From contig DFGB01000027.1 of NCBI GenBank assembly GCA_002371135.1, positions 1-60,270 of the forward strand: a DNA stretch of 60,270 nucleotides, in the 5' to 3' direction. This DNA comes from Verrucomicrobia bacterium UBA3761 (lineage in GTDB: Bacteria > Verrucomicrobiota > Kiritimatiellia > RFP12 > UBA1067). Below the pieces are notes generated by a model that was given only the letters and a program-made list of their open reading frames with translations, did not search any database and had not been told where the DNA came from. This document shows, in pieces, positions 1,801 through 60,270 of this stretch. Positions within the stretch are counted from its first letter, which is position 1. Every line of letters starts with the position of its first letter. The position numbers were made by a program, and so were the translations under genes.

Positions 1801-2111
1801 GGGAAGAGGGAAGAGGGAAGAGGGAAGTAGAAAGTAGGAAGTAGAAAGTAGGAAGTAGGAAGTAGGAAGTAGAAAGTAGGAAGTAGGAAGTAGGAAGTAG
1901 GAAGTAGAAAGTAGGAAGTAGGAAGAGGTTGTTTAATGTTGCCATTGTGAAAATGTTGCCAGTTCCAATGTTGCCAATTTCCAATTGGGAACAGGGAAGA
2001 GGGAAGAGGGAAAAGCCTAGGAAACTCTGCGACTCTGCGGCTCTGCGATAAAAATAGGGAATAGGGAAGAGGGAAGAGAATTTTCGATTTTCGATTTTTC
2101 GATTTACGATT
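1801..2111. repeat. Patchwork of at least five different short tandem repeats
   Basis: (GGGAAGA)n at 1801-1826, 1993-2013 and 2054-2078. (GTAGRAAG) about 12 copies at 1824-1925. AATGTTGCCA x3 at 1935-1976. GGAAA(CTCTGCGN)x3 ATAAAAA at 2020-2054. (TTTTCGA)x4 at 2080-2111. Confidence 0.95.
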
Positions 2112-23433: not shown

Positions 23434-23550
23434 AATGAATCACTCCTCAGCGCAGAACAATCCTCGTGCCGGTCTTCGGTAGATAGACAAGTTTCGTGCC
23501 ATTGCGTACAATCGCCTTGCCGTCTGTGAGGGGTCAAGAGGGTCAGACCC

Positions 23551-23605
23551 TTGGAAACTCTGCGTCTCTCAAGTCTCTGCGATAAAAACCTATTGCATGG
23601 TAGTG
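23551..23605 (-). repeat. 55-nt interspersed element (CTCTGCG-array family), copy 1
   Basis: TTGGAAACTCTGCGTCTCTCAAGTCTCTGCGATAAAAACCTATTGCATGGTAGTG. It is 54/55 identical to 26906-26960 and lies 33 nt 3' of the stop of 23638..25077. Confidence 0.95.
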
Positions 23606-23637
23606 ACCACAATTCCCACGACCGTATCACTTCAGGT

Positions 23638-25077
23638 CTATCCCCACCGGATTCCCGCAAGCGGTTTTCCGGCAAGACCGAAACAGTCGCGGGGCGTTAC
23701 GGCGAGGCGGATTGGTCTGTCGCGAGGAAGTTCATTCGCCGAGAACAGGCATTCGCCCGGAATGTCTGCGTATTCTTCCGGATAGGCGAATCCGGCGGCG
23801 ACGAGCCGGCGCACCGCAGGCGACGCCATCCCTTCGGCATACGCCTCGACAGTGTAGTCGAAAACGCGGCTTCCATTGACGGTTCTCGCCCGCGGGAAGG
23901 TCACGTAAAGGCAGGGCTCGCCCCTGTGCGCCTCGCTTTCAAGCGCATGACCCTCCGGGCAGAACTCCGCCGAGATTTCAGCATCCGCCGCGAACTGCGG
24001 TGCCGCACCTTCGGCTTTCCGCCGCGCCGCGCGCACCGCGAAGTCGAACGGCCCGCCCACCCGCGCCGGAACAGGGACCGTCCACGCCGGACCGATCGGG
24101 CGCATGAACGCGACGGACTGCCGCCGCACGACAAGACGGTCGTCGTAGACATCGACGATCTCGCATCCGCCCCCCTTCGCATCGCCGCCCCACGACTGCG
24201 GATCGGCCATCGAGCGCATGAGTTTCGTCCGGCTGCTTGGATGCCAGTGGGCCGTCACGTTGTCGTAGTTGAAACCGCCGGCGCTCTCGTGGATGCATCC
24301 GGCTCCGATCGATGTGAACGCACCCTGCCATACAGTGCGCTCGTCCGACAGCGCGCAGTGCGAATGGCCCGAGATTGCAACGGCGTTCGGGAAACGCGAA
24401 AGCACCGCGACCGACCCGCCGTCGTCGTCGCCCAGCGAATACGTGCCGTGGCACGTTCCCTTCGGATGCGCATGCTGGCAGTAGAAGAACGGCTTCCCGC
24501 CGCGAAATTCCGTCTCGTGCTCGCGGAAGTATTCTCCGACCGGAGAATTGAGACTCGACCACTGCGCGCCGACGAACGTGTAGCCCTTCACCTCGCGCCG
24601 CCAGACGAGGGACCAGTCCTGGCCGAAGAGCCTGCGCCACGTCTTCTGCGGATTGTCCTTCCAGTTGAAGCGCTGCGCGTCCATCTGCGCCTCGCTGAAG
24701 CTCTTCCACCTGCCGCCCCACGCATCCACGTCATGGTTGCCTGTGGAAATCATGAGATCCACCCGTCTGCCGCCATCCGGGAACACCTTGCGCCAAATCG
24801 CCGCGAACGCCTCCAGCTCGCCGACAAGGCCCGAATGCGCGATGTCGCCGGGACACAGCACCGCGTCGACATTCTCGGACGCAAAGTAGCGCAGCACCTT
24901 CTCCGCCGTCGCCTCCGCATCCTTCTTGCCGCCGATATGAACGTCGCTCAAAACGCCAAACCGAAGGTTGGGTTTGGGAGGAGCGGGCTCTATCCAATCC
25001 GCAGCCGGCAAGGATTCCGGCCCTCCCATGCAGAACGCCAGCGCTCCGCCGATAAAATCTCTGCGCGTAATGTTCAT
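23638..25077 (-). CDS. Calcineurin-like metallophosphoesterase with twin-arginine signal
   Basis: MNITRRDFIGG is a TAT motif. The metallophosphoesterase signature blocks are present: GVLSDVHIG, GDIAHSG and GNHD. Confidence 0.85.
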   Translation of the reverse strand: MNITRRDFIGGALAFCMGGPESLPAADWIEPAPPKPNLRFGVLSDVHIGGKKDAEATAEKVLRYFASENVDAVLCPGDIAHSGLVGELEAFAAIWRKVFPDGGRRVDLMISTGNHDVDAWGGRWKSFSEAQMDAQRFNWKDNPQKTWRRLFGQDWSLVWRREVKGYTFVGAQWSSLNSPVGEYFREHETEFRGGKPFFYCQHAHPKGTCHGTYSLGDDDGGSVAVLSRFPNAVAISGHSHCALSDERTVWQGAFTSIGAGCIHESAGGFNYDNVTAHWHPSSRTKLMRSMADPQSWGGDAKGGGCEIVDVYDDRLVVRRQSVAFMRPIGPAWTVPVPARVGGPFDFAVRAARRKAEGAAPQFAADAEISAEFCPEGHALESEAHRGEPCLYVTFPRARTVNGSRVFDYTVEAYAEGMASPAVRRLVAAGFAYPEEYADIPGECLFSANELPRDRPIRLAVTPRDCFGLAGKPLAGIRWG

Positions 25078-25083
25078 TTTTCT

Positions 25084-26733
25084 TCAATCCTCCTCGTTTT
25101 CGCCGCTCAAGTATCCGCCGTTCCATGCGCCGACGGACGGGATCGCGACATATGCCTCGCCGCCGGAACGCTTCAGTTCGAGCGTCAACGGCTCGCGCCG
25201 CATTTCATGCCACACGACGCGTTTCCACGACGGCGGAACGCCGCGCAGAAGAATGCGGACGGGCCCCTGTTCTGCGATGCGGAGATTCATGAGCGCGACG
25301 CATCTCAAGCATCCGTCCTTGTCGACATGTGCCTGCATCAGCCCCATGAACGGCGATTTGACGACGGCGGGCAGCCCCCCGGCCCGGGCATCCAGCGCGT
25401 CGCGGAACTTCTGCACGTCGCGGGAGGTCATGAGATTCGCGTTCTTCGCAATCTCCTCTTTCGAAAGCGTCCCAACTCCGCGCCCGACGCCGGAGATGAC
25501 AGGAATCGCCATATTCCTCACGCCGATTTTCTTTTCAGGCGGCATGGTGAAGCCGACCGGCTCGCAACCGTCGATGGCGCGCGCATAGCCGCGGAGCGTC
25601 TCCGACGCTTCGGCAAGCGGCTTCCACATCGTCATCCCGTAGAGCGCCGCATCTTCCTTCTCGCCGTTCGAGACGAAGTAGCTCACAGAGTTATAGCCAT
25701 ACATGAGCGCGGCGAATGCCTCGGCAAGGACGCCCTGCGACGAACGCGAATAGTAGGTCCGCGGCCAGCTCTCTATCTCCGGCGTCCATACCTTGACGTA
25801 GTCCGGGTCGCCGATGCGAGCACGAAGCGCCACGGCGTTGATGCTCTTCAAAACAACGATGTTCGGGTTGTCGTCGTAATAGAAACTCCCGCCGGGACGG
25901 CATCCGACCGGGCGGCCCGTCACGGAATGGAGAGTCTTCAAAACTTCTGCGGCCTGATCGTCCATCTCGACGCCGGAAGCGCACTGGAGCGCCATCATCG
26001 TATCCGGCGAAATCGAATGGAACGTTTCTGCGACGGCTCTTGCGACAAGCGACAGACTCTCTATGGAAAACCGCCGCCAGCGCGCATGGACCGCGTCGTC
26101 TTTCACGACGGCCGCCGCGAGCGCCTCGCGCGTCCACGCTCCGCCGGTCTCGGCGTTGAACGCGGCGATGCACGTATCGCAGAAGCAGCCCGAGCGCCGT
26201 CCCTGGCTCTCGGCCGGACGGTGGTAGGCGATGCGAAGGTCGTCGTCCAGCCATAACGCGTGGAAACCGAGCCGCGCGTATATCGCCGATACGTCGCGGA
26301 GGTAATCGAGGAATGCACTCTGACGCGGACAGTTGCAGAATTTATCCTCGACGCCCTTCCAATCCGTCCAGCCGGTCCACGTCTTCATCGTGAACATCTC
26401 CGGCGAGCCGGATTCGTCGCCATGTCCAATCGTTGCCTGGAATTGGAGAGACGGGACGATTCCCGCCCCACGCGCGTCCTTCACCGCTTCTGCAAGGACG
26501 GCGGCGCGGGCGCGGTGCCATTCAAGCGACGGCACGCCCGTGCCGGTCGAAAACCATATCTCGTCGCAGCAACCGGGATTCTCGGCAATCGCCTTGAAAT
26601 TGGCCTTCCATATTTCCTTAGTATCGGTGTCGTTCGCCCTGAGCCGCATCGACATCACCGGCCGCGCTGCGCACGGGAGGATCGCGCTTGTCACGATCGC
26701 AAACGAAGCAACCGTCAAACAGATTTTTTTCAT
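25084..26733 (-). CDS. Secreted hypothetical protein (possible glycoside-hydrolase-like fold)
   Basis: Start taken at MKKICLTVASFAIVTSAILPCAA (signal peptide). It is operonic with neighbours, 6 nt from the next gene. No confident family assignment. Confidence 0.6.
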   Translation of the reverse strand: MKKICLTVASFAIVTSAILPCAARPVMSMRLRANDTDTKEIWKANFKAIAENPGCCDEIWFSTGTGVPSLEWHRARAAVLAEAVKDARGAGIVPSLQFQATIGHGDESGSPEMFTMKTWTGWTDWKGVEDKFCNCPRQSAFLDYLRDVSAIYARLGFHALWLDDDLRIAYHRPAESQGRRSGCFCDTCIAAFNAETGGAWTREALAAAVVKDDAVHARWRRFSIESLSLVARAVAETFHSISPDTMMALQCASGVEMDDQAAEVLKTLHSVTGRPVGCRPGGSFYYDDNPNIVVLKSINAVALRARIGDPDYVKVWTPEIESWPRTYYSRSSQGVLAEAFAALMYGYNSVSYFVSNGEKEDAALYGMTMWKPLAEASETLRGYARAIDGCEPVGFTMPPEKKIGVRNMAIPVISGVGRGVGTLSKEEIAKNANLMTSRDVQKFRDALDARAGGLPAVVKSPFMGLMQAHVDKDGCLRCVALMNLRIAEQGPVRILLRGVPPSWKRVVWHEMRREPLTLELKRSGGEAYVAIPSVGAWNGGYLSGENEED

Positions 26734-26763
26734 GCGAAAACTTTTCAGCGAATCAATAGCATA

Positions 26764-26960
26764 CAATAGATTTTTATCGCAGAGACTTGAGAGTCGCAGA
26801 GATTATGGATTTTGTTGGTGTTATTTCATATGCACAGCGCATAGTTCTTTCATTTTGGCTAAAGAGTGTGTTGATTTGACGTCTCATGAAAAATGCGAAA
26901 AACCCTTGGAAACTCTACGTCTCTCAAGTCTCTGCGATAAAAACCTATTGCATGGTAGTG
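26764..26960. repeat. MITE-like unit: 38-bp imperfect inverted repeats of the CTCTGCG element around a 111-bp AT-rich spacer
   Basis: Left arm CAATAGATTTTTATCGCAGAGACTTGAGAGTCGCAGAG (26764-26801). Right arm 26913-26950 has 3 mismatches. The right side is element copy 2 (26906-26960). Confidence 0.9.
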
Positions 26961-29900
26961 TCAGCGAATGATGATCAGCATTCCGGGAGGAGTGCCGTAG
27001 CGAAAGAGCCACTTGTCGTTCCATGCGCCAATCAGGTCTTTGCCGTAGCGCTCGAACATGGCGGCGTAGTTCGGCTTGGAATCGACATCGGCGATGTCGT
27101 CAATCGCGGTGAAGCGCGAATCGACCCGCCACTCCCCGGTGTCTTTGCGCAGACAACCGACGGCAATGCTCCAATCCTCTGCCCAACCGGTCCCAACCGT
27201 CGCCGGCGGCACGCCGTCGAAGAAGACTTCCGGCGCACTGCCTGAGAAGATGTGGTGCGGCAGCGCCGTCGCGCCGGAAATTTTCACGCTCGCAAGTGCG
27301 GGGCAGTCGTTGAATGCGCCCGCCGCCGTGTCACTGTTAAGAATGTTCCAATTCTCAAGATTTCCTTCCAACGTCGCCGAAACGAGGTTCGGGCAGCCGC
27401 CGAACGCGGCGCCTTCGACGTCCAGAATATCGACGGAAACGACAACAGAGGTGATCTTGCCGCGCCCGTCGTGCCAGTTGTCGTAATAATCCTGCGCCTT
27501 GTGCATGGCCGAAGCATTGACACCGCGCAACGGATAGAGCCGCTTGTCTTCCGTCTCCAGGTCGGAATAAAGCGTCGTCAGATCAAGCCGCCCGGAGCCT
27601 TCCACATAGGCGTCCATGCAGAAGTATTGTTCGGCACTGACATTGTTGGCCGGACGCGACGCAACGACAAAGAGCCAGTTGCCGTCCGTAACTGCGGCAA
27701 GGTCGTTGTAAGCGGGGTAGTCCGCTGTCAAGCCGCCCGGTGCGAGATAAGTCCACGGGCGCGTGAAGGAGGCGTTGACCTCCGTCGGCGCGGCAGGCAT
27801 CGTGAAGTTGACAGTCGCGCCGTTCGCAGTCGCGCCGTCCGGCAGAACGTCCCACTCTTTGAACGTCGTGACAGTCGGAGAAGTCGCCCCCGCCGCCGTG
27901 ACGGTGAGTGCCGTCCCGGCAGCATAGTAGCCGTCGGCGGAGGCGGGCGAGACGGTCACCGTCTCGTTGCCTTCGTCGGCATGGGCGTCGAGTCTGTAGG
28001 CGATCGGCGACCACTGCCATGTGAGGCGTGTCGGTGTTCCGTCGTAGGCAATCGTGGCGGAGGTTCCGTTGTGGCTCGTCGCCGCGCCCCACGTGATGCC
28101 GCCGTCGACGGAAGTTTCAAGAGTATATCCCGTAGCCTCGTATTTGACGCCGTTCGCATAGGACGGCGTTTTCGCCGTGATGGTCAGCGTATCGCCGGCG
28201 ATCACGCCATTGACGCGCCCGTAGCCATGCGACGAGTCCCCCACATCGTCGCCGAGCGAACCGCGCACGACGACCGTATCGAGCGGCACTTCCGCTACGA
28301 AATACTCCAGCTCCTGAAGTCCGACCCTGTAATCCCCGCCATAATTCGACGACAGCGGATGGAACTTGATGAAGCGAAACGGCTTGTCGTTATCCGGCAA
28401 CAGGACGTCGAGCGACCATATGTTATCACTCCATACGACAGGTTCGCTTTGGCGATGTATCTCCGCCCAGTCTCCATTCAAGCCGGTGTTGGATCCGTAG
28501 AAGACCCATGTTTTCGGCGCGCGCGACACGCCGTCCTTGGTGTTGTAGTTGTTCCTGTTGCGCCACAGGCGGATCTTCTTCACCGCGAGGCCTTTCTTGC
28601 CGGAAGGCAGCGCAAGTGCTGGAATCTCGAACGTCGCGCTGGCAGATGCACAATCCTTTTCGCCAGCGAGCCATCGTTCCGGCATGTTCCCTGCAGGCGA
28701 ACCCGTGACGATATCGCCGTCGAACAACTTTTCAGGCTTGTAGCTGTTGTGATAGCCCGTGCCCGAAACGCACTCCGCAACTGTCACGCCCTTTGCCGCC
28801 AGATATGTCCGCAGATTGGCGGCTTGGGATTCCTCGACAAAGTATTCCAGTTCCATCGCGCCAAGCTTCCAACCTAGATTATTGCCTGCATTGTAGGTTT
28901 CTATGAAGGATTTGGCGGGTTGAAATTTGAATTTGCGGTAGGGCGTGCGTCCAGAGTCCGGGACTTCAAACTCTAGATACGACTTTGCGCCTGCCACGCC
29001 GGGCTCGTACCACTCGGCCGGTTCCGACGTGCGATCGTCGATAACGTCCCAATCCTCTTTTTCGTCGTTCCAGCCCAATATTTTCCACGTCGCCGGTGCG
29101 CGCCTGAAATAATGCTCGTCGCTTAGTTCGGAATAACGGTATATGCGATAGCGCCTGAGGACAAGACCGTCGGCATCGTTTCCGAAAAGCGTGTCTGGCG
29201 CGGCAATCACGACATTCGCGCTATCGCTCGCTTTTTCTTGCGCGAGCCAGCGGTTGTTTTTGGCATCTGTTGCGTTCGAGACGCTGTTTGTGCCATCGAA
29301 GAGGATTGTCGGACCGTAGCTTGAGTTATGGCCTTCGCCCGAAACGCAGTCGGCGACGACCGCGCCTTTTTCCGTCAGCCAGTCACGCAGATTCACGCCG
29401 GGTTTCTGCGGCACCTCCTCCACGAAATACTCTATTTCCTGAAGAGCGGTTTTCGGTGTGTAGGCATAGTTGGAAGTCTTCGGCTCGAACTTGATATAGC
29501 GGAACGGCTCGGTATTTTCCGCGAGCGCGACTTCGTTGTAAGTTTTGTTTTGCCATGTCACGGCCGTACTCTGGTTGTGCAGCACCGTCCAGCCGACGCC
29601 ATCGTTCGACCCGGACACGATCCATGTGAGCGGTGCTCTTTGGAGTCCTGTATTGGAGCCGCTGTTCATGCTGCGCCACAGGCGAAATCTCTTCAGCACG
29701 AGTTCCTTCTTCGCGGCGGATATCGCCGATTTAGGAATCTCGATCGTCACATATACGCCGGAAAGATTCGGATCGCCTGCGATCCAGCGATAAGATGAGT
29801 TGTAAACGCCACCCATGCCAACACCGTCGAAAAGCTTCTGCGGTACGTAGTCGGAGATGTGGCCTTTACCTGAAACGCAATTGGCTACTGTCACGCCTTT

Positions 29901-29993
29901 TGCGGTCAGCCAATCGCGGAGATTGATCTCTGTCGCGTTGAGTGTGGCGGCGAAACCGATCGCCGCGCCTATTGCTGTGAGCAGTTTTTTCAT
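26961..29993 (-). CDS. Large secreted surface protein: three discoidin/F5-8-type-C-like modules, Ig-like region and BspA-type leucine-rich repeats
   Basis: Signal peptide MKKLLTAIGAAIGFAATLNA. Three ~190-aa tandem modules each start NLR(D/T)(W/Y)L..KG..VA.CVSG.G and end LQE(I/L)EYFV.E. C-terminal LRR-like GAAFGGCPNLVSATLEG...AFNDCPALASVKISG. AGGAGG SD upstream. Confidence 0.75.
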   Translation of the reverse strand: MKKLLTAIGAAIGFAATLNATEINLRDWLTAKGVTVANCVSGKGHISDYVPQKLFDGVGMGGVYNSSYRWIAGDPNLSGVYVTIEIPKSAISAAKKELVLKRFRLWRSMNSGSNTGLQRAPLTWIVSGSNDGVGWTVLHNQSTAVTWQNKTYNEVALAENTEPFRYIKFEPKTSNYAYTPKTALQEIEYFVEEVPQKPGVNLRDWLTEKGAVVADCVSGEGHNSSYGPTILFDGTNSVSNATDAKNNRWLAQEKASDSANVVIAAPDTLFGNDADGLVLRRYRIYRYSELSDEHYFRRAPATWKILGWNDEKEDWDVIDDRTSEPAEWYEPGVAGAKSYLEFEVPDSGRTPYRKFKFQPAKSFIETYNAGNNLGWKLGAMELEYFVEESQAANLRTYLAAKGVTVAECVSGTGYHNSYKPEKLFDGDIVTGSPAGNMPERWLAGEKDCASASATFEIPALALPSGKKGLAVKKIRLWRNRNNYNTKDGVSRAPKTWVFYGSNTGLNGDWAEIHRQSEPVVWSDNIWSLDVLLPDNDKPFRFIKFHPLSSNYGGDYRVGLQELEYFVAEVPLDTVVVRGSLGDDVGDSSHGYGRVNGVIAGDTLTITAKTPSYANGVKYEATGYTLETSVDGGITWGAATSHNGTSATIAYDGTPTRLTWQWSPIAYRLDAHADEGNETVTVSPASADGYYAAGTALTVTAAGATSPTVTTFKEWDVLPDGATANGATVNFTMPAAPTEVNASFTRPWTYLAPGGLTADYPAYNDLAAVTDGNWLFVVASRPANNVSAEQYFCMDAYVEGSGRLDLTTLYSDLETEDKRLYPLRGVNASAMHKAQDYYDNWHDGRGKITSVVVSVDILDVEGAAFGGCPNLVSATLEGNLENWNILNSDTAAGAFNDCPALASVKISGATALPHHIFSGSAPEVFFDGVPPATVGTGWAEDWSIAVGCLRKDTGEWRVDSRFTAIDDIADVDSKPNYAAMFERYGKDLIGAWNDKWLFRYGTPPGMLIIIR

Positions 29994-32376: not shown

Positions 32377-33377
32377 CTCCTCATCACTTCCGCCTTTACG
32401 CCGTCATCGACTTCAAGGACTTCGAGTTTCCACTTGTACGGATCTTTCGCCTTGTCCGCGCAGACGCGCGAGACCGTCGTCTTGAAAAGCCCCTTCTCTT
32501 TGAAAAACACGAGCTGGTATCCGCGAAGGTCGCCGGGCACCGTCTGCATCAGGTTGATTGCAAGAAGATATTTTGCATACGCCGCATCGAGTTTTCCCGT
32601 TTCGTCCTTCGATTCCATGAGCCGCCAGATTTCCGCAAGCATCGGCGCAAGCGCGGCGCGTTCGGATATGACGCCCTCCGAGCCGAGACGTCGCGACTGG
32701 TAGAGCCATTGCCATCCACCCCACGCGCTGAATATTGTCTTGAGCGGAGGCCGCGCCGCAAGTTCCGCCGCCATGCGACGGTTCGCCTCGAATCCGTCGC
32801 GCACCTCCTCCTTGACCCAGCCGTATATCGCGGGATGCCGCGTCGCCAGATTCACAAGCAGTTCAACGGATGGCGCGGGGCATTTGTCGCCGTTGTATGT
32901 CTGGATTATGACGGGACGTTTCGCAACGGCGGCAAGCGCCTCGTAGTAGCGTTCCAAATCTTCTTGCGTCCGGCAGTCGTCGGCGGGGCGAGAAATGAAG
33001 ATGATGCGAGAGTCGCAACGCGCCGCAAGTTCCTCGCCATGGCGTGCGAGCGCAAGCATCTCAGCCGTGTCGCGCCCCTCGACGCCAAGGCAGAGGCGCG
33101 CGTTGAACGCCGCCGAGCGTTCGGCGAGGGCCGTCATGCCGCGCTTCTTCTCTTCGACAGTCAAAAGGTCGATGGAATCGTCGGACTGCGGCCAGATGAT
33201 GCCGTCCACGCCGGCCGCGTCCGCCCATTCGGCTTCCTTTACGAGAGATTCATAATCCACCGCGCCGTCCGCGAGATAAGGCGTCGTGAGAATCGGGTAG
33301 GCGCCACGCACGCACTCCGCCGCAAGCGCGGCGGAGCACGAAAACGCTACGGCGGCCAATGTGGCTACGATTCTCAT
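32364..33377 (-). CDS. Dihydrodipicolinate synthase/N-acetylneuraminate lyase-family aldolase with signal-like N-terminus
   Basis: YPILTTPYLADGAVDYESL and GWVKEE (Schiff-base Lys context) are typical of the DapA family. The N-terminus MRIVATLAAVAFSCSAALAAE looks like a signal peptide. Confidence 0.7.
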   Translation of the reverse strand: MRIVATLAAVAFSCSAALAAECVRGAYPILTTPYLADGAVDYESLVKEAEWADAAGVDGIIWPQSDDSIDLLTVEEKKRGMTALAERSAAFNARLCLGVEGRDTAEMLALARHGEELAARCDSRIIFISRPADDCRTQEDLERYYEALAAVAKRPVIIQTYNGDKCPAPSVELLVNLATRHPAIYGWVKEEVRDGFEANRRMAAELAARPPLKTIFSAWGGWQWLYQSRRLGSEGVISERAALAPMLAEIWRLMESKDETGKLDAAYAKYLLAINLMQTVPGDLRGYQLVFFKEKGLFKTTVSRVCADKAKDPYKWKLEVLEVDDGVKAEVMRRCGE

Positions 33378-34681
33378 TTTCGCGCCGCCTCCCTGTCGCG
33401 TTCGAAGAAGAATATCCGCGCCGCGCCGATTGCCGCCGCCCCTGCAAGCATGAATACCGAGAGCGACGCAATGCTAGTGCACATGGAAAAATGCGAGTTC
33501 ATCCAGCCCATGACGGCCGGACCGGAAGCGCCGATAACGCACCCGCCACATCCAAACACGCCAACCGCCGCCGCCCTGTGGCACGGCTTGACGACTTCGA
33601 AGAGCGATGCGTAGATGTTCGAGTCGTAAACGCCCGTCGCAAACCCGAAGAGCGCCGTTCCGGCGATGCAGAGAGAGGCCGTTGGCGCGAATGCGGAAAG
33701 AAGAAGCCCCGGCACGCACAGCACAAGCCCGGCGGCATTCACGTCGAACCTCGTCTGCGGACGATGCGCGGCGAACCGGTCGGAAACGCGCCCGCCCGCA
33801 AATACGCCGGCGACCGCGCCGAGATAGAACCAGAACACGGCATGGAACGCGGCGGACGCAGCCGTCACGGACGGGAAGCTGCGCTGGAGATACGCGACTA
33901 TCCACGTGTTAAAACCGTATTTCGCATAGAAGTAAAACCCGAGCCCCGCCATGAGCAGCAACGCCGACGGCTTGCCAAAGAAAGCGGAAAAGTCGAAAGG
34001 TTGAAAAGTGGGAAATAGAATTTTCCGGTTTTTCATTTTATCGCAGAGACGCAGAGACGCAGAGCGCGCAGAGGACTTTTCAACTTCACCCTCTTCCCTC
34101 TCTTGCAGAAGGAACACAAGAGCGACGGCCCAGAGAGCGGAAATCGCGCCGAAGAGGAAGAACGCCTTGCGCCATGCACCCGCACCAAGCCCGGAAAGCC
34201 AGCCCGAGACGCAACTCGTCACCACTATGCCGATATAGAAAACGATCTGGTAGATCGAAAACGCCGTCGCGCGCGTCTCGACGTGGTATTGGCCGATGAG
34301 CGACGAATTCGACGGCGGCAGCAACGACTGCCCGACCGCGTTCACGACCCCGTATGCGACGACGATCATGGCGACGCTCGATGCAAGGCCCGACGCGAAA
34401 ACGCCCGCGCCGAAAAGCAACGTGCCCGCGACTATCATCCACTTGCGGCTGAAAGCATCAGCCAGCGCCCCGCCGAACGGAATCGCAAGGCCGAACACGA
34501 GCGTGAATACGCTGCCGACGAGCCCGAGCTGCGCGTCGTTTACGCCCAGCGCCGCGAAATCCGCCTCGATCTGCGGCAAGACGGTATTGAATATCTGCCG
34601 CGATCCTTGCGCGAGGAAATACGTCGCGGAAAGGAGCGAGAGCAGAATCCACTTGTAGTTTCTAGACCCGGTTTTGAACAT
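33374..34681 (-). CDS. MFS transporter
   Basis: 12-TM-like hydrophobicity. MFS loop motif GALADAFSRKW. Start taken at MFKTGSRNYKW (34681), 10 nt downstream of an extended -10 box. Confidence 0.85.
   Translation of the reverse strand: MFKTGSRNYKWILLSLLSATYFLAQGSRQIFNTVLPQIEADFAALGVNDAQLGLVGSVFTLVFGLAIPFGGALADAFSRKWMIVAGTLLFGAGVFASGLASSVAMIVVAYGVVNAVGQSLLPPSNSSLIGQYHVETRATAFSIYQIVFYIGIVVTSCVSGWLSGLGAGAWRKAFFLFGAISALWAVALVFLLQEREEGEVEKSSARSASLRLCDKMKNRKILFPTFQPFDFSAFFGKPSALLLMAGLGFYFYAKYGFNTWIVAYLQRSFPSVTAASAAFHAVFWFYLGAVAGVFAGGRVSDRFAAHRPQTRFDVNAAGLVLCVPGLLLSAFAPTASLCIAGTALFGFATGVYDSNIYASLFEVVKPCHRAAAVGVFGCGGCVIGASGPAVMGWMNSHFSMCTSIASLSVFMLAGAAAIGAARIFFFERDREAARK
34030..34105 (-). repeat. CTCTGCG-array element inserted in-frame in the MFS central loop
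   Basis: The minus strand reads GAGGGAAGAGGGTGAAGTTGAAAAGTCCTCTGCGCGCTCTGCGTCTCTGCGTCTCTGCGATAAAATGAAAAA. It encodes QEREEGEVEKSSARSASLRLCDKMKN and is collinear with the intergenic element at 40191-40262. Confidence 0.85.
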
Positions 34682-34691
34682 TCTGCCTAGT

Positions 34692-34700
34692 ATTATACCA
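34692..34700 (-). promoter_or_regulatory. Extended -10 promoter (TGGTATAAT) of the MFS operon
   Basis: The minus strand reads TGGTATAAT, then 10 nt, then the ATG. No SD. Confidence 0.5.
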
Positions 34701-34760
34701 TAAAAAACACGCAATACATCATCTGTAAAATAAAATATTTATCATTTTCCCGATAACGCC

Positions 34761-34797: not shown

Positions 34798-35982
34798 ATG
34801 AAGACCCGCATACCGAACATCGTCATCGCCTCGATACTCTCGGAACCGGCCGGCCAGCGCAAGTTCGCCGGGCTTTTCTCGTATCTCGGCGCCATACACC
34901 GCTGGAATCTGCGCATTCTCCGCGCACAGGACGAAATCGTCGCGTTCTTCAAAAACGCGGAGTCCCTTTCGAAAATCGACGGCATCGTCTACTCCGGGCA
35001 CCATGACGCGAAAGTCGCAAAGGCGCTCGCCACGGCCGCATGCCCGGTCGTCGCGATGGAGATAGAATCGCCGCAGCTCGCGAAAAGAAGCAGCAACCTC
35101 ATCATCATACGCAACGACGCGGACGAAATCGCAAAGTGCGCCGTGAAGGCGTTTGCCGACTCCGGCCGCTACAGGACGTTCGCATACGTGAACGACAGAT
35201 TCCACCGCGAATGGTCGAGGCGGCGCGAAGAGGCGTTCCGCAAAGCCGTGGCGTCCAAGGGATGCGGAGAGGCGAAAATCTACGCGCCGTCCACTCTCGA
35301 CGCCGACAAAGACCTCGAGCCGCTCGCGGAGTTCCTCAGGAGACTCGAATATCCAGCCGCCGTTCTCGCAGCGAACGACATGCGCGCGACGGAAGTCATC
35401 GCGGCGGCGCAGTCTGCCGGCATCAAGGTGCCGGGCATGATTTCGATCCTCGGCATCGACAACGATCCATACATCTGCGACAGCGCGACTCCGGCGATAT
35501 CCAGCATCGAGCCCGACTTCCTCGGGGAGGGGGCGGCCGCCGCCGCGTTGCTGGACAAGATGATGAAAAGCCGCCAGCCACTCGGCAAGCGCCATGTCTT
35601 TTTCGGCGTGAGCCGCGTCGTCGTCCGCGAATCGATGCCGCACCTGCCACCCGCGCAGAGCCTCGTAGACAGGGCGAAGGATTTCATCAAAGAACACGCC
35701 GTGGACGGCATCGCGCCCGGCGATGTCGCGGCGCACCTCGGCGTATCGCGCGCCCTTCTCGACCTCAGATTCCGCCAGACTCAGAAAACCTCGGTCGGAC
35801 GGCTCATCACAGACGCAAAACTCGCCGAGGTCGCGCGGCTTCTCAAATCGACGCGCATCGCAATCGGCGCGATACCGGACCTGTGCGGCTTCAAAAACCC
35901 AAACTCCCTCAAAAACCTCTTCAAAAAACGCTTCGGCCTTTCCATGCGCGAATACAGGGAAAAAGAAGAAAGTAGGAAGTAG
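34798..35982 (+). CDS. XylR-like regulator: periplasmic-binding-protein-type sugar sensor fused to AraC-type HTH
   Basis: The N-terminal two-thirds is LacI/PBP-like (AVLAANDMRATEVIAAAQSAGIKVPGMISILGIDND). The C-terminus has an AraC HTH (GFKNPNSLKNLFKKRFGLSMREYR). It is divergent from the sugar operon. Confidence 0.8.
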   Translation: MKTRIPNIVIASILSEPAGQRKFAGLFSYLGAIHRWNLRILRAQDEIVAFFKNAESLSKIDGIVYSGHHDAKVAKALATAACPVVAMEIESPQLAKRSSNLIIIRNDADEIAKCAVKAFADSGRYRTFAYVNDRFHREWSRRREEAFRKAVASKGCGEAKIYAPSTLDADKDLEPLAEFLRRLEYPAAVLAANDMRATEVIAAAQSAGIKVPGMISILGIDNDPYICDSATPAISSIEPDFLGEGAAAAALLDKMMKSRQPLGKRHVFFGVSRVVVRESMPHLPPAQSLVDRAKDFIKEHAVDGIAPGDVAAHLGVSRALLDLRFRQTQKTSVGRLITDAKLAEVARLLKSTRIAIGAIPDLCGFKNPNSLKNLFKKRFGLSMREYREKEESRK

Positions 35983-36102
35983 AAAGTAGAAAGTAGGAGA
36001 TTTGCCGCCTGGGCGGGTCGTACGTTCTATCTCCTACTTCCTATCTCCTACTTCCTACTTTCTACTTTCTACTTCCTACTTTCTACTTCCTATCTCCTAC
36101 TT
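35966..36102. repeat. Inverted arrays of the 8-bp GTAGGAAG/GTAGAAAG repeat (long hairpin)
   Basis: Forward array at 35966-36001 and reverse array (CTTCCTAC/TTTCTAC units) at 36029-36102, around a 27-nt loop. The regulator's stop codon (35980-35982) lies inside the forward array. Confidence 0.9.
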
Positions 36103-36120
36103 GCGCTCTGCGCAGAGCGC
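36103..36120. promoter_or_regulatory. Perfect 18-bp palindrome abutting the -35 box (candidate operator)
   Basis: GCGCTCTGCGCAGAGCGC lies 1 nt upstream of the TTGCGC -35 box. It contains CTCTGCG and its complement. Confidence 0.45.
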
Positions 36121-36121
36121 T

Positions 36122-40050: not shown

Positions 40051-40107
40051 CACTGTCATGCAATAGTTTTTAACACAGAGGCACTCAAGACACAGAGTTT
40101 CCAGAGG
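40051..40107 (+). repeat. Diverged copy of the 55-nt element with CACAGAG units
   Basis: CACTGTCATGCAATAGTTTTTAACACAGAGGCACTCAAGACACAGAGTTTCCAGAGG. It is collinear with the reverse complement of 23551-23605 and starts 12 nt after the GH2 stop. Confidence 0.85.
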
Positions 40108-40136: not shown

Positions 40137-40280
40137 TTTTTCGATTGCTGCAAGCCTTCCATTTTAACACAGAGGCACAGAGACACAGAGATTCACAGAG
40201 TGAAAAGTTGAAAATTCTCTGTGCTCCTCTGTGTCTCTGTGCCTCTGTGTTAAAATGGAAGGCTTGCAGCAATCGAAAAA
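40137..40280. repeat. Perfect 54-bp inverted repeat (extendable to ~61 bp) with a 36-nt loop
   Basis: 40137-40190 (TTTTTCGATTGCTGCAAGCCTTCCATTTTAACACAGAGGCACAGAGACACAGAG) is the exact reverse complement of 40227-40280. CACAGAG (40194-40200) and CTCTGTG (40217-40223) in the loop also pair. Confidence 0.97.
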
Positions 40281-56772: not shown

Positions 56773-59700
56773 TTACTCCATCGGCTTGATCATGGATTCG
56801 ATGAACTTCTGCTCGGATTTGGTGATGCCGTATTTCGCGTAGAGCTGGGCGTCGATTTCAGAAACAGGACGCGACCAGTCGATGTCGGATCTCGAAGTGA
56901 AATCTTGAAGAGGAACAAAACGATACACCCTATCTTGCGCGTGTTGGGTGACTTTCGCCGCACAAACAAGAATACGGAAGAAACGCGTCTTTAGATATGA
57001 CGAAAAGTTCGTTGCCTCCTCATGAGAGTTAAACTTTGCATACAGATATGTTTGCGAACACACCGACTGCTTAGGCGCAACCTCGGGTTCTCCCAATATC
57101 TGGTGCGGAAAACTTTCCCCCGCGCCATACGCACCAGGAATAAACACCTTGTCTAACTTTACATCTGAGGCGTTCTTTGCGATTGCTTTGCCGCGAACAT
57201 AGCCGACGATGCGCTTGCCACCCTTCCAGTAGTATAGAGCGGTATCGAACTCGGTGGTCTTTTTGTCGCTGACAGCGAACGGTGTTTTCTTGCTTTCACC
57301 GGGATTTGTGGGGATGCCGAATGGCGTATCGGCAGAGATGATGGTGGATACTGTCTCATCGCGGCCATCGCGCTGGCAAGCCCCTACCACTTTCCGCACA
57401 ATAGCGGCGGTTCTTGGGTTGCGAATGAAAATGGGGAACTCGTTCATGGCGATTGTCGCGGTGTCGGTCTTACCGTTTTCGTTCAGCGAGTATTCGCACA
57501 TTCCATTATGCTCGCGGTCTTCGAGGTAATAGCACACGCCGCCCTTGATTTCAGCCGTCGGGAACAGAGAATGTGCATCGGCGAATGCAAAGAGTTTGCG
57601 GACGTGGCCGCAACCAAGCATCCGCTCGCGAAACGTCTTCAGTTGGCTTTCGCGTCCGGCGGCAAACCACTTGGCGGGGATGATGAGTGAAACGAAGTGG
57701 GTTGTGATGGTCGATGCCGCATCGGCAAAATACTGGAAAATCGGCGCGTCGTTCGTTCCGCCTGAACCACCCATCAACTGATACGGCGGATTGCCGACCA
57801 CTGCGTCAAACTTGAGCATTTTCATTTCAAACTCCTTGTTGTTCCATGCGTTGCCGCCACAGACCTTGTTGTAGAATTTCTTCGGTTCGTTCTTGAGCAG
57901 TTCCACGAGATTCTTGATGTACTGCGCATTGACCGTCGCCTTGTCGTCGTAGCCGACGAGCGTGCGCCGCGTGATAGCCCGTGCCATGGGCGTTTTGCAG
58001 ACGACGAAGAGCGAACGCGCAACCACCTCGCGCCACAGTTTCGCAAGCGCCGCCGGCGTCACCGCGTCCTCCGGCACATCGCCGAGTTTGCGGCGGTAGA
58101 GCGAGTAGGCCACGTAGAGCGGATAGAGGCCGGATTTGGAATTGATTTCGAGAATCTTCGCATCGGGCTTGCCAAATATAGCCTGTGTCACACCCCCATG
58201 CTCAACATGCCGCGGCGCATCCTCAATAGGTTTATCAAAGTTCTCGTCCCAGAAACACCAGCCGCCGATGGTGTCGGCAAGGTGCATGTTCACGACGCGC
58301 CAGGGCGTGAGAACGGTTTCCTTGTCGGGGTTCTTGAAGTAGCCGAATATCCGCGCGATCTGCTGGACGCGCCTTGTCGGCGGAAGCTTGTCCGCGCTCT
58401 TGGCGAGTTTTCGTATCTGCGTGCCCGCTTCCGCAAAAACATCCGCGTCGTAGTATTCGACGAACTTCTTGAAGATCGCCTTTGTGACGCCCTGCGGCAT
58501 GAACTCCGCCCACGACTCGTCATCGACGAGGTTTGGAAAGTCCTTGATTGAAATGACCTGCTCTATTGGCACGTCCGCTCCGTAGATGAGAAGTGGCATG
58601 CGTATCGAGATTGCGCGGAGAATGAGAATCGCGTTTTTCTTTTCCGCGCGGCGGCGCTTCATCTCCTCGCGCGCGGCCTTTTCCTCTTCGGAGAGCGGTC
58701 GCGACGGAGCGCTGCCCTCCCGCTTTTCATGTTCCTCGTCGGCAAAATCCTGTTCGTTGACATAGACGGTATCGGCCATCTTCGTCTGCTTGGACGACCC
58801 GACGATCTTCCGAAGGTCCTCGAACTTCTTCAGGTCGATGTCAGTCAGCTCAAGGAGCCGGTTGGAGTAGAGCGACGTGTCGTCAAAGCCGTTGCGGATG
58901 GTCTTCATCACGAAGATGTGCTTGATCGAGGCCATCATCTTCTTGACGTCGTGCACCTCCATCTTCGAGCCGGAGATGGATATGACGGGACAGTAGTTCA
59001 GGAACTCGCCGAGGATGCGGCGTCCGTTCGATTCGGTCGTGTCGTTCTTCGACACGCGGCACGAGACCTGAGCCGTCTCGGCCAGCACCTTCAATGCACG
59101 GTCAGGCGCGAAATCGAACGCATAGCAGTCGGTTTTCATCTTGCCGCCGAGGTCGCCAGGACTCTGCACGCGGAAGATCGTCTGCATGTACTGTGCGGCG
59201 GACGTGACCGCGCTTCCGGCGACCATGAGGACGGCCGTCCATTCGGGGACCGTCACGCCGGTTGTGAGCTTGCCGCACGAGAGCGTGATGGAATACTCGT
59301 TCTCGCGGATGGTCTTCTTCACGAGTTCGAGTGCGCTGTCGTAATGCCGCTCTTCGTAGTCGTCACCCTCACCGGCGACATTGGCGATACCGTATTCCTT
59401 GAAGTACCTATGTTTGCGCAACAGGGCGGAAAGCGCCTTCGCGGACGCGACGCCCGGCACCATCCAAAGCGTGTGGCGGAAGAGGTCGCGATGCTCTTGC
59501 GTGGCAAACGGGTAGCGGCTTTTCGGGCTGTCGCCGGAAATCAGGTCGAGGAAGCGCCGCACATCATCCTCATGCACGAAGTCGCCGACCTTGGCGTCTC
59601 GCGGGACGGGATGATGGTCGATTTCCTTGTCGCCGGTCCAGGTGCGGAAGAACTCGCGGAAGTTGAACGCCTTGCCTTCAAGGTCGTCTTCCGAGAATCC

Positions 59701-60270
59701 GTCAAGTTCCGCGCCGAGGTCGTACGTGTAGAGATTGAGGCGCGGCAGGGCGGCGTAGGGATTGGGTTCGTCGGGATGTTCTTCGTCCCACGTCTCCTTC
59801 CGCTTCTGCTCCATCACGTAGTCCCAGACGAAAACCGAATCTTCGTCGTACTGCGAGAGGATGTTGAACGGCGTGCCGGAAAGCGAGAGGACTTTCGTGT
59901 GCTTCTTGACGAGATGCTCGCGGACTTCCTTGCCAAGGTCGGTCTGAGTCCCCTCGTGCGCTTCGTCGACGATCACGAGGTCCCAATCCATGTTGAATAC
60001 GCCGCGGTTCTTGTCGTACTTGCCGTTCACGATCTGCGAGCCGCGCAAGTCCTGGATGGACGCGAAGTAGATGAAACGCTTGCCCGATTCGTCGAGGCGG
60101 GCGAGTTCGCGGTCGTTCCGCGCCTCCACCTTGTCGTTGAACTCGTATGCTCCGCCGCCAAGAGAGCTCTTGCGGTAGAACGTATAGCCGTCCACCTTCG
60201 TAAAGAGCTTGTTGAAATCCTCCTGCCAGCCGCTACCCACCACCGGGCGGTGCGTGACGATGATGACGCG
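56773..60270 (-). CDS. SF2 helicase - N6-adenine DNA methyltransferase fusion (Type ISP-like restriction-modification enzyme); N-terminus outside window
   Basis: The frame is open to the window edge (RVIIVTHRPVVGSGWQ...). DEAH box LVIVDEAHEG, motif III-like LSLSGTPFN, SAM-binding-like ILEINSKSGLYPL and catalytic VVGNPPYQ. About 350 aa of putative target-recognition region follow the MTase motifs. Confidence 0.75.
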   Translation of the reverse strand, partial: RVIIVTHRPVVGSGWQEDFNKLFTKVDGYTFYRKSSLGGGAYEFNDKVEARNDRELARLDESGKRFIYFASIQDLRGSQIVNGKYDKNRGVFNMDWDLVIVDEAHEGTQTDLGKEVREHLVKKHTKVLSLSGTPFNILSQYDEDSVFVWDYVMEQKRKETWDEEHPDEPNPYAALPRLNLYTYDLGAELDGFSEDDLEGKAFNFREFFRTWTGDKEIDHHPVPRDAKVGDFVHEDDVRRFLDLISGDSPKSRYPFATQEHRDLFRHTLWMVPGVASAKALSALLRKHRYFKEYGIANVAGEGDDYEERHYDSALELVKKTIRENEYSITLSCGKLTTGVTVPEWTAVLMVAGSAVTSAAQYMQTIFRVQSPGDLGGKMKTDCYAFDFAPDRALKVLAETAQVSCRVSKNDTTESNGRRILGEFLNYCPVISISGSKMEVHDVKKMMASIKHIFVMKTIRNGFDDTSLYSNRLLELTDIDLKKFEDLRKIVGSSKQTKMADTVYVNEQDFADEEHEKREGSAPSRPLSEEEKAAREEMKRRRAEKKNAILILRAISIRMPLLIYGADVPIEQVISIKDFPNLVDDESWAEFMPQGVTKAIFKKFVEYYDADVFAEAGTQIRKLAKSADKLPPTRRVQQIARIFGYFKNPDKETVLTPWRVVNMHLADTIGGWCFWDENFDKPIEDAPRHVEHGGVTQAIFGKPDAKILEINSKSGLYPLYVAYSLYRRKLGDVPEDAVTPAALAKLWREVVARSLFVVCKTPMARAITRRTLVGYDDKATVNAQYIKNLVELLKNEPKKFYNKVCGGNAWNNKEFEMKMLKFDAVVGNPPYQLMGGSGGTNDAPIFQYFADAASTITTHFVSLIIPAKWFAAGRESQLKTFRERMLGCGHVRKLFAFADAHSLFPTAEIKGGVCYYLEDREHNGMCEYSLNENGKTDTATIAMNEFPIFIRNPRTAAIVRKVVGACQRDGRDETVSTIISADTPFGIPTNPGESKKTPFAVSDKKTTEFDTALYYWKGGKRIVGYVRGKAIAKNASDVKLDKVFIPGAYGAGESFPHQILGEPEVAPKQSVCSQTYLYAKFNSHEEATNFSSYLKTRFFRILVCAAKVTQHAQDRVYRFVPLQDFTSRSDIDWSRPVSEIDAQLYAKYGITKSEQKFIESMIKPME

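What the first reader, a model, noticed from the sequence alone, without database searches (positions are those of the whole stretch)
23551..26960. Near-identical 55-nt element placed immediately 3' of genes
Copies at 23551-23605 and 26906-26960 differ at 1 of 55 positions. Both lie on the coding strand just after a stop codon, 33 nt and 0 nt downstream. A third, diverged copy at 40051-40107 lies 12 nt after the GH2 stop in the same relative orientation. Read in gene direction, the element is CACTRYCATGCAATAG(G)TTTTTAWCRCAGAG..CAGAGTTTCC. It has no obvious internal hairpin, so it is not a standard terminator. Its end, CTCTGCGATAAAA, resembles an extended -10 box (TGnGATAAA). If functional, that box would fire antisense into the upstream gene.
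Basis: seen in the sequence. Interest (0 to 1): 0.65.

Follow-up and report, generated by a model that had tools for sequence, protein, structure and literature searches.

The report
Ends of a small mobile element
The 55-base repeat is the terminal inverted repeat of a 207-base non-coding "jumping" DNA element (a MITE) present in dozens of copies in an uncultured rumen Kiritimatiellae bacterium. It sits just after genes because insertions are tolerated there, not because it marks gene ends.

Summary
In detail: the coordinates, the 1/55 mismatch and the 33/0/12-nt distances from stop codons all check out.

With the copy at 26906-26960 it bounds a 207-bp element (26754-26960). This element has ~51-nt terminal inverted repeats and is flanked by a 9-bp direct repeat, TCAGCGAAT, that contains the upstream gene's stop codon.

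A strain whose neighbouring protein is 97% identical has the exact empty site: one copy of the 9-mer and an 11-nt gene gap. Five sister-species loci have the same 11-nt gap. The element is therefore a polymorphic transposon insertion with a target-site duplication.

Contig depth in three metagenomes is about 17-40x the flanks for the interior and about 150-200x for the repeat core. Contigs break exactly at the element edges.

23547-23605 is a truncated solo end, present also in the empty-site strain. 40051-40101 belongs to a second subfamily. Other copies lie 5' of genes in the opposite orientation, and one lies in frame inside a transporter gene.

No sigma-70-like promoter, terminator or Rfam family was found.

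Verdict: a new MITE family, ordinary in kind. One open point remains. Its repeat core, a T-rich head plus three (G/A)CAGAG units, also forms hairpin arms in many unrelated viral contigs.

The parts
26754..26960 (.). Complete 207-bp non-autonomous element (MITE): TIR - 105-nt non-coding interior - TIR
   Evidence: Inverted repeat I17. Sharp depth edges at 26754 and 26960 in three metagenomes. Absent, with an exact empty site, in L046. Folds as a long hairpin, -80.8 kcal/mol, z = -8.6.
26754..26804 (+). Left terminal inverted repeat (CAATAGCATACAATAGATTTTTATCGCAGAG...). It ends 20 nt before the ATG (26733) of the 549-aa gene.
   Evidence: (I15, I17).
26910..26960 (-).
   Evidence: (D17, I17).
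26745..26753 (.). Target-site duplication, left copy (TCAGCGAAT; ATTCGCTGA in gene direction)
   Evidence: Read directly. L046 has a single copy.
26961..26969 (.). Target-site duplication, right copy. It contains the stop codon (TGA on the minus strand, 26961-26963) of gene 26961..29993.
23547..23605 (-). Solo, truncated copy: a right-type TIR plus 8 nt of interior. It lies 33 nt after the Metallophos stop and 176 nt before the next gene's start (23370).
   Evidence: 59 nt at 98% identity to 26902-26960 (D17). No partner nearby. Present also in L046. Contigs break at 23606.
40051..40101 (+). Solo TIR of a second subfamily (..TTTTTAACACAGAGGCACTCAAGACACAGAG..).
   Evidence: The same subfamily occurs in sheep-rumen contigs L012 and L013.
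40137..40280 (.). Separate hairpin element whose 64-nt arms carry the same head plus CACAGAG array. It is absent from the strains in runs X5 and X10.
   Evidence: I8, 95% complementary. Fold of -144 kcal/mol, z = -17. Joint 40094->40269.
2020..2055 (-). Solo core module (TTTTTATCGCAGAGCCGCAGAGTCGCAGAGTTTCC), 70 nt upstream of a + strand gene and in the opposite orientation to it
34036..34073 (+). Core module (TTTTATCGCAGAG + 3 more CAGAG units) lying in frame inside the central loop of MFS transporter gene 33374..34714(-)
   Evidence: The loop segment 33976-34144 is replaced by 133 other letters in X10 and X14. Many contigs diverge at exactly 34036 and 34073.

Best explanation
The 55-nt 'element' is the terminal inverted repeat of a 207-bp non-autonomous transposable element (a MITE). 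It belongs to a high-copy family in an uncultured rumen Kiritimatiellae bacterium.

Shown:
- One complete copy (26754-26960) inserted into the 11-nt spacer between two co-directional operon genes and duplicated 9 bp of target, ATTCGCTGA. That 9-mer includes the upstream stop codon, which is why the element starts 0 nt after the stop.
- The insertion is polymorphic between closely related strains.
- 23547-23605 is a truncated solo end that is fixed in both strains.
- 40051-40101 is a solo end of a sister subfamily.

Inferred:
- Mobilisation is in trans by a DDE-type transposase that makes 9-bp staggered cuts. No such transposase was identified.
- The three subterminal (G/A)CAGAG units are its likely binding sites.
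- The element is co-transcribed with the operon. In the mRNA it forms a ~50-bp imperfect hairpin with a 5' U-run and a 3' A-run, so it does not act as an intrinsic terminator.
- Copies sit after, before or occasionally inside genes because those insertions are tolerated, not because the element serves gene 3' ends.
For: 1. TIRs: 51 nt, 86% complementary, 105 nt apart (I17).

2. TSD and empty site: a 9-bp direct repeat abuts both ends. Strain L046, whose 549-aa protein is 97% identical, reads ...ATCATCATTCGCTGA|AAAGTTTTCGC|ATGAAAAAAAT. That is the window sequence minus the element and one 9-mer. Sister-species loci L018-L022 and L045 also have an 11-nt gap. The arithmetic fits: 227 = 11 + 207 + 9.

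3. Copy number: flank depth is 66/22/13 in X1/X2/X10. The interior is ~1500-2900/350/240 and the TIR core is 13363/3220/2210. Depth drops sharply at 26754 and 26960. Contigs from several runs diverge at 23606, 26751-54 and 26960-62.

4. The insertion is present in the populations of X2, X10 and X14. Unique flanking contigs run 26-29 nt into each TIR.

5. Family members in independent sheep-rumen contigs share the termini CAMTRNCATGCAATAG and part of the interior.

6. The 105-nt interior is too short for a transposase gene. Its 36-aa reading frame is interrupted by indels in L013.

7. The solo copy keeps 8 nt of interior (59-nt identity against a 51-nt TIR). This fits truncation of a full element.

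8. An RNA contig joins the left TIR to the downstream gene (26352-26786). RNA depth upstream (6.4) and downstream (7.6) is similar.

9. No Rfam family, terminator or sigma-70 promoter was called in the TIR.
Against: - Only one complete copy with both flanks could be inspected, so the 9-bp TSD rests on a single insertion, although its empty site is exact.
- No autonomous element or transposase with matching ends was found.
- Copy numbers come from metagenome contig depth. They may include related populations, and because both arms fit both places the TIR figure may be doubled.
- The head plus 3x GCAGAG core also occurs as hairpin arms in more than 35 unrelated viral contigs without evident TSDs. 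The core may therefore have a role or origin beyond being this transposon's end.
- The RNA data are unstranded contigs that break at repeats, so read-through and an internal promoter (ATGAAA-16-CATAAT, 26829->26802) cannot be told apart.
Confidence: 0.85

Rival explanations
1. One reading: a dedicated gene-3'-end signal, an unconventional terminator or stabiliser placed in a fixed orientation after stop codons, whose TGCGATAAAA box fires an antisense promoter into the upstream gene.
For: Three copies in the window lie 0-33 nt after stops in the same orientation. In related and viral contigs, solo cores are somewhat more often 'sense after a stop' than the reverse, roughly 10 versus 4 in co-directional contexts. 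This tally used a crude ORF caller.
Against: - Inverted copies lie directly 5' of genes (26754-26804; 2020-2055; L012; L010).
- A core copy sits in frame inside a coding region.
- The 0-nt position is explained by the TSD.
- A close strain lacks the element at this gene end and has no substitute.
- There is no hairpin plus 3' U-run. The arrangement is 5' U-run and 3' A-run.
- GATAAA lacks the key -7 T and is not called as a promoter.
- No RNA contig covers 26966-27187.
Confidence: 0.04
2. REP/REPIN-type element: inverted doublets of a repeat, mobilised by a RAYT (IS200/IS605-like tyrosine transposase) without target duplication.
For: It is an extragenic, high-copy repeat occurring as inverted doublets plus singlets, and it forms hairpins. 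The wider 3x GCAGAG hairpins in viral contigs show no obvious TSD.
Against: There is a clean 9-bp TSD with an exact empty site. Single arms are not themselves palindromic (z = -1.2). There is no GTAG-type REP head. No RAYT gene was seen in about 76 kb of this genome.
Confidence: 0.05
3. The mobile element has been co-opted. The hairpin in the polycistronic mRNA acts as a processing, stability or translation-coupling element (RNase III target, 3' exonuclease block, or a block at the stop codon), or the element supplies an outward promoter for the downstream genes. This adds to the MITE explanation rather than replacing it.
For: - The hairpin is strong (z = -8.6) and starts at the stop codon.
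- It is co-transcribed with the downstream gene.
- There is a weak internal outward promoter-like site, 26829->26802, 9/12 matches.
- In Neisseria, Correia MITEs are cut by RNase III and alter expression (PMC10969869).
- GCAGAG units are conserved in both arms even where the spacers do not pair.
Against: A close strain does without the element at this site. Enrichment of the interior in RNA (about 7x) equals its DNA copy-number enrichment (about 7x), so there is no sign of independent expression. No direct assay was possible.
Confidence: 0.2
4. A local duplication, gene conversion or assembly artefact created two near-identical 55-mers 3.3 kb apart.
For: Metagenome assemblers do create chimeric joins at repeats. 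One X1 contig joins 23606 to 26754.
Against: The same arrangement is found in an independent assembly (L001, 99.5% identical over the 207 bp). Several samples have unique contigs entering both TIRs. Depth shows tens to hundreds of copies, not two.
Confidence: 0.01

Closest known systems
Prokaryotic MITEs in general, with Neisseria Correia elements (CREE) as the best-studied example
   Same: A small (207 bp) non-coding element with long TIRs, a target-site duplication, high copy number, intergenic and intra-operon insertion, strain polymorphism, hairpin formation in co-transcribed mRNA, and half or solo copies. The definition of 50-800 bp, TIRs of at least 10-15 bp and a TSD of 2-10 bp is from PMC11602168. 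The Correia biology is from PMC10969869.
   Different: There is no sequence similarity. The TSD is 9 bp, not TA. The TIRs are ~51 nt with three subterminal (G/A)CAGAG units, not 26 nt. No IHF site or proven outward promoter is present. The host is an uncultured Kiritimatiellae bacterium. The cognate transposase is unknown.
Rickettsia palindromic elements (RPE)
   Same: Palindromic repeat modules that also occur in frame inside protein-coding genes at permissive positions. Here these are the MFS transporter loop, an FdtA-like gene in L010, and a Mu-like portal-MuF ORF in L024. RPE in-frame insertion is described in PMC10969869.
   Different: Only the ~40-nt core, not the whole 207-bp element, is seen inside genes. 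Most copies are intergenic. The lineage and sequence are unrelated.
REP / BIME / REPIN elements of proteobacteria
   Same: Extragenic, often just after stop codons or between operon genes. They occur as inverted doublets and singlets, mixed in mosaic fashion with other short motifs, and are co-transcribed as hairpins.
   Different: REPs have a conserved 5' tetranucleotide head followed by a palindrome, are moved by RAYTs and leave no TSD (from my own knowledge of the family). Here there is a 9-bp TSD and the arms are non-palindromic.
Cyanobacterial STRR (short tandemly repeated heptanucleotide) sequences
   Same: Arrays of 7-9-nt units in intergenic DNA at high copy. Here these are (C/A)GCAGAG(A) and, elsewhere in the window, GGAAGTA, GGGAAGA and TTTTCGA. 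This comparison is from my own knowledge and was not tested.
   Different: STRRs are long tandem arrays with no defined ends. Here the array is short (3-4 units), has a fixed T-rich head and forms part of a TIR.
Integron attC sites
   Same: Imperfect palindromes placed directly 3' of ORFs.
   Different: There is no cassette array in uniform orientation and no intI. The main family ends TTTTTATC/GATAAAAA, which does not fit the RYYYAAC/GTTRRRY core sites. The insertion duplicates 9 bp of target, which attC recombination does not do.

Membership tests
MITE (non-autonomous class II element) | Small size (50-800 bp) with no transposase gene | tested here: met
   The element is 207 bp. Its 105-nt interior has only a 36-aa frame, which is not conserved in L013. 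The size range is from PMC11602168.
MITE (non-autonomous class II element) | Terminal inverted repeats of at least 10-15 bp | tested here: met
   The arms are 51 nt and 86% complementary (I17). The termini are conserved in 8 copies.
MITE (non-autonomous class II element) | Target-site duplication of 2-10 bp flanking the element | tested here: met
   The 9-bp repeat TCAGCGAAT lies at 26745-26753 and 26961-26969. The empty site has a single copy. Only one full copy could be checked.
MITE (non-autonomous class II element) | Multiple dispersed copies in the genome | tested here: met
   Depth relative to flanks is about 17-40x for the interior and about 150-200x for the TIR core in three metagenomes. 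The window holds 8 core copies.
MITE (non-autonomous class II element) | Presence/absence polymorphism at orthologous sites (evidence of mobility) | tested here: met
   Present in the window, L001 and the populations of X2, X10 and X14. Absent from L046 (97% identical neighbouring protein) and from six sister-species loci.
MITE (non-autonomous class II element) | A related autonomous IS with the same termini that supplies the transposase | not testable with these tools
   The source genome is not in genome contigs. The metagenome scan gave only four related short contigs without a transposase.
Correia element (CREE) | Neisseria-specific 100-155-bp element with 26-bp TIRs, a TA duplication and an IHF site | tested here: not met
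   The size, TIR, TSD (9 bp) and host all differ. It works like a Correia element but is not a member.
REP/REPIN | Each repeat unit is itself an imperfect palindrome with a conserved 5' head; no target duplication; associated RAYT | tested here: not met
   The single arm gives z = -1.2. A TSD is present. No RAYT-like gene was seen in the ~76 kb inspected. The rest of the genome was not inspected.
Intrinsic (Rho-independent) terminator | GC-rich hairpin followed by a 3' U-run | tested here: not met
   The scan calls none in or at the element. The hairpin is flanked by a 5' U-run and a 3' A-run.
Sigma-70 promoter (extended -10) | TGn + TAnnnT hexamer, with or without a -35 at 16-18 nt | tested here: not met
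   TGCGATAAA has G at -12 and A at -7. No site is called in the TIR. The transcript joined to the downstream gene extends to 26786, upstream of the start the left copy's box would give (about 26768 by my estimate).
Known RNA family (Rfam 15) | Match to a curated covariance model | tested here: not met
   No hit at gathering score in the window. No hit at E <= 5 in 26700-27000. At 39980-40360 there are only generic sub-threshold matches to miRNA-precursor hairpin models.

The most novel reading that the evidence does not exclude
The core of the repeat is a T-rich head (TTTTAAC / TTCAMC / TTCGC) followed by exactly three or four (G/A)CAGAG units at an 8-9-nt period. On this reading it is not just this transposon's end. 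It would be an independently conserved ~35-nt module shared by Kiritimatiellae chromosomes, Mu-like and other phage contigs of widely different GC content, and at least one cyanobacterial contig.

The module usually occurs as outward-facing inverted pairs between genes and sometimes in frame inside genes. The GCAGAG units are conserved in both arms even where the spacers do not pair. This pattern would point to sequence-specific recognition of the unit by a widespread, unidentified protein. Candidates are a transposase family with multi-site ends or a single-strand nucleic-acid-binding multimer. It would define a new superfamily of mobile or regulatory hairpin elements.
Probability: 0.2. Interest if true: 0.6.

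Novelty: new member of a known kind. Interest (0 to 1): 0.35.

Why it matters
- It replaces a speculative '3'-end signal / antisense promoter' with a documented polymorphic MITE insertion inside a glycan-utilisation operon (GH10 - 1010-aa protein - 549-aa protein - phosphoesterase) of a rumen Kiritimatiellae population.
- Strains with and without the insertion coexist in public data. This gives a natural test of what a ~50-bp hairpin placed at a stop codon does to operon expression.
- The family explains why assemblies of this organism fragment at these positions, and it can serve as a strain marker.
- The broader 3x GCAGAG hairpin module in phage contigs is undescribed as far as my searches reached. 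It is the part worth a specialist's second look.

Tried and rejected
- Genome-contig scan with TTTTTAWCRCAGAGN{8,16}YAGAGTTTCC: one hit, a chance match inside a Butyrivibrio coding region. The source genome is not in that collection.
- Metagenome-contig scan: 11 loci. Four sheep-rumen contigs are related (L004, L010, L012, L013). L003, L005 and L008 are chance matches, and L006, L009 and L011 show no arrays. L007 is an unexpected cyanobacterial look-alike.
- Searching for a partner of the solo copy and for its empty site: synteny ends right after the Metallophos gene in sister species, so no comparison was possible. No partner was found in 10 kb beyond the left end of the window.
- TSDs for the 40137-40280 hairpin and for the viral-contig hairpins: none convincing.
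- RNA evidence: only unstranded Logan contigs exist, and they break at the repeat. Transcript ends cannot be mapped.
- Rfam at relaxed thresholds: nothing specific.
- Literature search for the literal sequence strings and for Kiritimatiellae repeats: only unrelated primer hits. The supplements of the NAR 2024 MITE survey are not held.
- Orientation statistics across viral contigs: my simple ORF caller mis-assigns many high-GC intergenic modules as 'inside' genes. Only a rough tally (10 sense versus 4 antisense in co-directional contexts) could be made, and it is not significant.
- A link to the GxxExxY (PDDEXK_3) gene flanked by modules in L010 was considered as a possible carrier or origin. 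It is a single case and was not pursued.


Full report
OBSERVATION

The identity actually runs 59 nt, 23547-23605 versus 26902-26960 (D17).

The neighbouring genes are on the minus strand and are real. 23638..25077 is a calcineurin-like phosphoesterase. 26961..29993 is a 1010-aa protein with an InlB B-repeat. 25084..26733 is a 549-aa protein whose start was confirmed by an independent gene call. The distances of 33, 0 and 12 nt from the stops are correct.

The short motif TTTTWAHCRCAGAG occurs 8 times in the window against 0.09 expected.

The intergenic region 26734-26960 contains a second copy in inverted orientation. 26754-26804 is 86% complementary to 26910-26960, with 105 nt between them (I17).

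Immediately outside these two arms the 9-mer TCAGCGAAT occurs twice, at 26745-26753 and 26961-26969. Read in gene direction it is ATT CGC TGA: the last two codons and the stop codon of the 1010-aa gene. The structure is TSD - TIR - 105 nt - TIR - TSD, the signature of a cut-and-paste or replicative DDE transposon insertion.

PROOF OF INSERTION

Homologues of the 549-aa protein identified the organism as an uncultured Kiritimatiellae bacterium and gave orthologous loci.

In five loci from sister species (about 80% protein identity) and in L045 (82% identity), the two genes are 11 nt apart.

In L046, a strain whose protein is 97% identical, the junction reads ...ATCATCATTCGCTGA AAAGTTTTCGC ATGAAAAAAAT. 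This is exactly the window sequence with the 207-bp element and one 9-mer removed, since 227 = 11 + 207 + 9.

The populations in runs X2, X10 and X14 do carry the insertion. Their unique flanking contigs run 26-29 nt into both arms. The element is therefore polymorphic within the species.

The solo copy after the phosphoesterase gene is present and identical in L046, so it is older.

COPY NUMBER AND EDGES

I laid the contigs of three DNA metagenomes on 26660-27050. Flank depths are 66/22/13. The interior is about 1500-2900/350/240 and the arm core (26772-26785) is 13363/3220/2210. Depth drops sharply at 26754 and 26960.

Contigs from several samples diverge at 23606, 26751-54 and 26960-62.

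Two biases affect these figures: both arms fit both places, and related populations may contribute. Allowing for them, the genome carries tens of full-length-like copies and on the order of a hundred or more arm cores.

FAMILY STRUCTURE

Eight arms, four from the window and four from independent sheep-rumen contigs, align to CAMTRNCATGCAATAG(N)TTTTTAWCRCAGAG-N12-CRCAGAGTTT. There are two subfamilies:
- ...TAACACAGAGGCACTCAAG..., which includes copy 3 at 40051-40101.

L013 also shares part of the interior.

The solo copy at 23547-23605 keeps 8 nt of interior beyond the 51-nt arm. This fits truncation of a full element.

Nested or tandem arms occur in L004 and L012. MITEs inserting into one another are known in pneumococcus (PMC10969869).

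POSITION AND ORIENTATION

In the window, the genes around the element run in tandem, so every intergenic insertion is 3' of one gene and 5' of the next.

Copies do occur in the 'other' orientation directly upstream of starts: 26754-26804 is 20 nt from an ATG, and 2020-2055 is 70 nt from one. L012 and L010 show the same.

The core also lies in frame inside the central loop of the MFS transporter 33374..34714. It adds about 14 residues relative to the sister-species protein. That loop segment is replaced in other strains.

On the copies available it is essentially met.

STRUCTURE AND EXPRESSION

- A single arm does not fold (z = -1.2).
- The full element folds into a ~50-bp imperfect hairpin of -80.8 kcal/mol, z = -8.6.
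- The stem is flanked by a 5' U-run and a 3' A-run, the reverse of an intrinsic terminator. No terminator is called.
- The TGCGATAAA box is not called as a promoter.
- Promoter-like sites next to start codons look canonical: TTGACC-N18-TATACT at 40312-40341, just before the ATG at 40349, and TTGCGC-N17-TATAAT before the ATG at 36157, read by eye.
- A metatranscriptome contig joins the left arm to the downstream gene (26352-26786). RNA depth is similar on both sides of the element.
- Enrichment of the interior in RNA (about 7x) equals its enrichment in DNA. This fits passive co-transcription.
- A weak outward promoter-like site inside the element (26829->26802, 9/12 matches) cannot be excluded.
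- No Rfam family matches.

MECHANISM

Shown: the element is an insertion with a 9-bp duplication, is polymorphic and is multi-copy.

Inferred: it is mobilised in trans by an unidentified DDE transposase that makes 9-bp staggered cuts, with the three subterminal (G/A)CAGAG units as probable binding sites. The element is tolerated inside operons because its hairpin does not terminate transcription.

Possible secondary effects are RNase III cleavage, protection from exonucleases, interference with termination at the adjacent stop codon, or an outward promoter. These are analogies to Correia and REP elements and were not tested.

A WIDER PATTERN

This goes beyond the finding itself. The arm core, a T-rich head plus three or four GCAGAG units at an 8-9-nt period, recurs in IMG/VR contigs whose GC content ranges from 0.43 to 0.60 in those I measured. 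A scan for 3x GCAGAG alone returned more than 120 loci. Many of these are coding AEQ-type repeats. About 50, however, are the CGCAGAG type with heads such as TTCACC, TTCAAC, TTAAAC or TTCGC, and they are often outward-facing inverted pairs forming 100-170-nt hairpins between genes.

In those pairs the GCAGAG units are conserved in both arms while the spacers often mismatch. I saw no TSDs there.

A cyanobacterial contig has a similar head plus array. Two in-frame occurrences exist in other contigs: an FdtA-like gene in L010 and a Mu-like portal-MuF ORF in L024.

I could not determine whether this is one old MITE superfamily, a module repeatedly captured by different elements, or a functional motif. 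This is the basis of the 'novel case'.

VERDICT

The finding is real, but it is explained as a new family of a well-known kind of element (MITE). I rate interest as modest (0.35). It is raised slightly by the clean natural with/without polymorphism in an operon and by the undescribed wider module.

Noticed in passing
window 1-~21950 (continues ~10 kb to the left in L042): Mu-like transposable prophage. It includes an HTH repressor-like gene, Terminase_6 (4452-5927), Portal_Mu (5927-7531) and Mu-like_Pro_N (8062-9060). The early region in L042 has DUF3164, AAA_22 (MuB-like) and a 707-aa gene in the MuA position. Its ends and 5-bp duplication were not mapped.
   Followed up: partly
window 50092-60243 (low GC, 0.42-0.44, over 51401-56821): Defence island. 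It holds Gabija GajB (52476-53525) and GajA (53533-55125), an extra AriA/PtuA-like ATPase (55131-56756), a PDC-M01A/PtuA-like ATPase (51188-52432), and a ResIII/Eco57I-type restriction-modification enzyme of 1379 aa (gene call in L039) whose 3' portion is 56773..60243 and which runs past the window's right end.
   Followed up: partly
window 1788-1939, 35940-36116: Arrays of heptamers, (GGGAAGA)n and (GGAAGTA)n. The array at 35962-36102 forms a hairpin between the AraC-type regulator gene and the GH2 gene. These sequences are also multi-copy (depth 101 versus ~12 in X10). They resemble cyanobacterial STRR repeats and are rich in GGA motifs.
   Followed up: no
window 1481-1643 and 2070-2100; 50331-50455: Other simple-sequence modules: an 80-nt direct repeat containing the palindrome GGGCTAATAAATCAATTTGATTGATTTAGCCC, (TTTTCGA)n, and four copies of a 21-mer CAATCGGCTGTTTTCCCGCTC. 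Intergenic DNA in this genome is a mosaic of such modules.
   Followed up: no
window 33976-34144 (inside MFS gene 33374..34714, minus strand): A composite of repeat modules (GGGAAGAGGG, GTTGAAAAGT / ACTTTTCAAC inverted pair, CAGAG array) is read in frame as part of the transporter's central loop. The segment is replaced by 133 different letters in the strains of X10 and X14.
   Followed up: partly
window 40312-40349 and 36120-36159: Canonical -35/-10 pairs sit so close to the ATG that the mRNAs would be leaderless or nearly so. No Shine-Dalgarno sequence is evident (for 40312-40341; the 36120-36159 site was read by eye).
   Followed up: no
L010 1990-2376 (sheep-rumen contig AUXO015702484): A GxxExxY / PDDEXK_3 small gene (E = 1e-35) is inserted between PseB-like and FdtA-like genes of a sugar-biosynthesis operon. 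CAGAG modules bracket it. A further module lies in frame inside the FdtA-like gene and one follows its stop.
   Followed up: partly
window 40095-40268: This 174-bp segment, the tail of the solo arm plus the whole 40137-40280 hairpin, is absent in the strains of X5 and X10. It is a second intergenic presence/absence polymorphism, without a clear TSD.
   Followed up: partly
L007 5270-5333 (contig Ga0123337_10013896, with GCGATCGC/HIP1 sites): An apparently cyanobacterial contig carries CAATAG-TTTTTTAAC followed by GCAGAGGAACGCTGAGGGAAGCGCAGAGGAACGCTGAGG. This is the same head-plus-array layout in a distant phylum.
   Followed up: no
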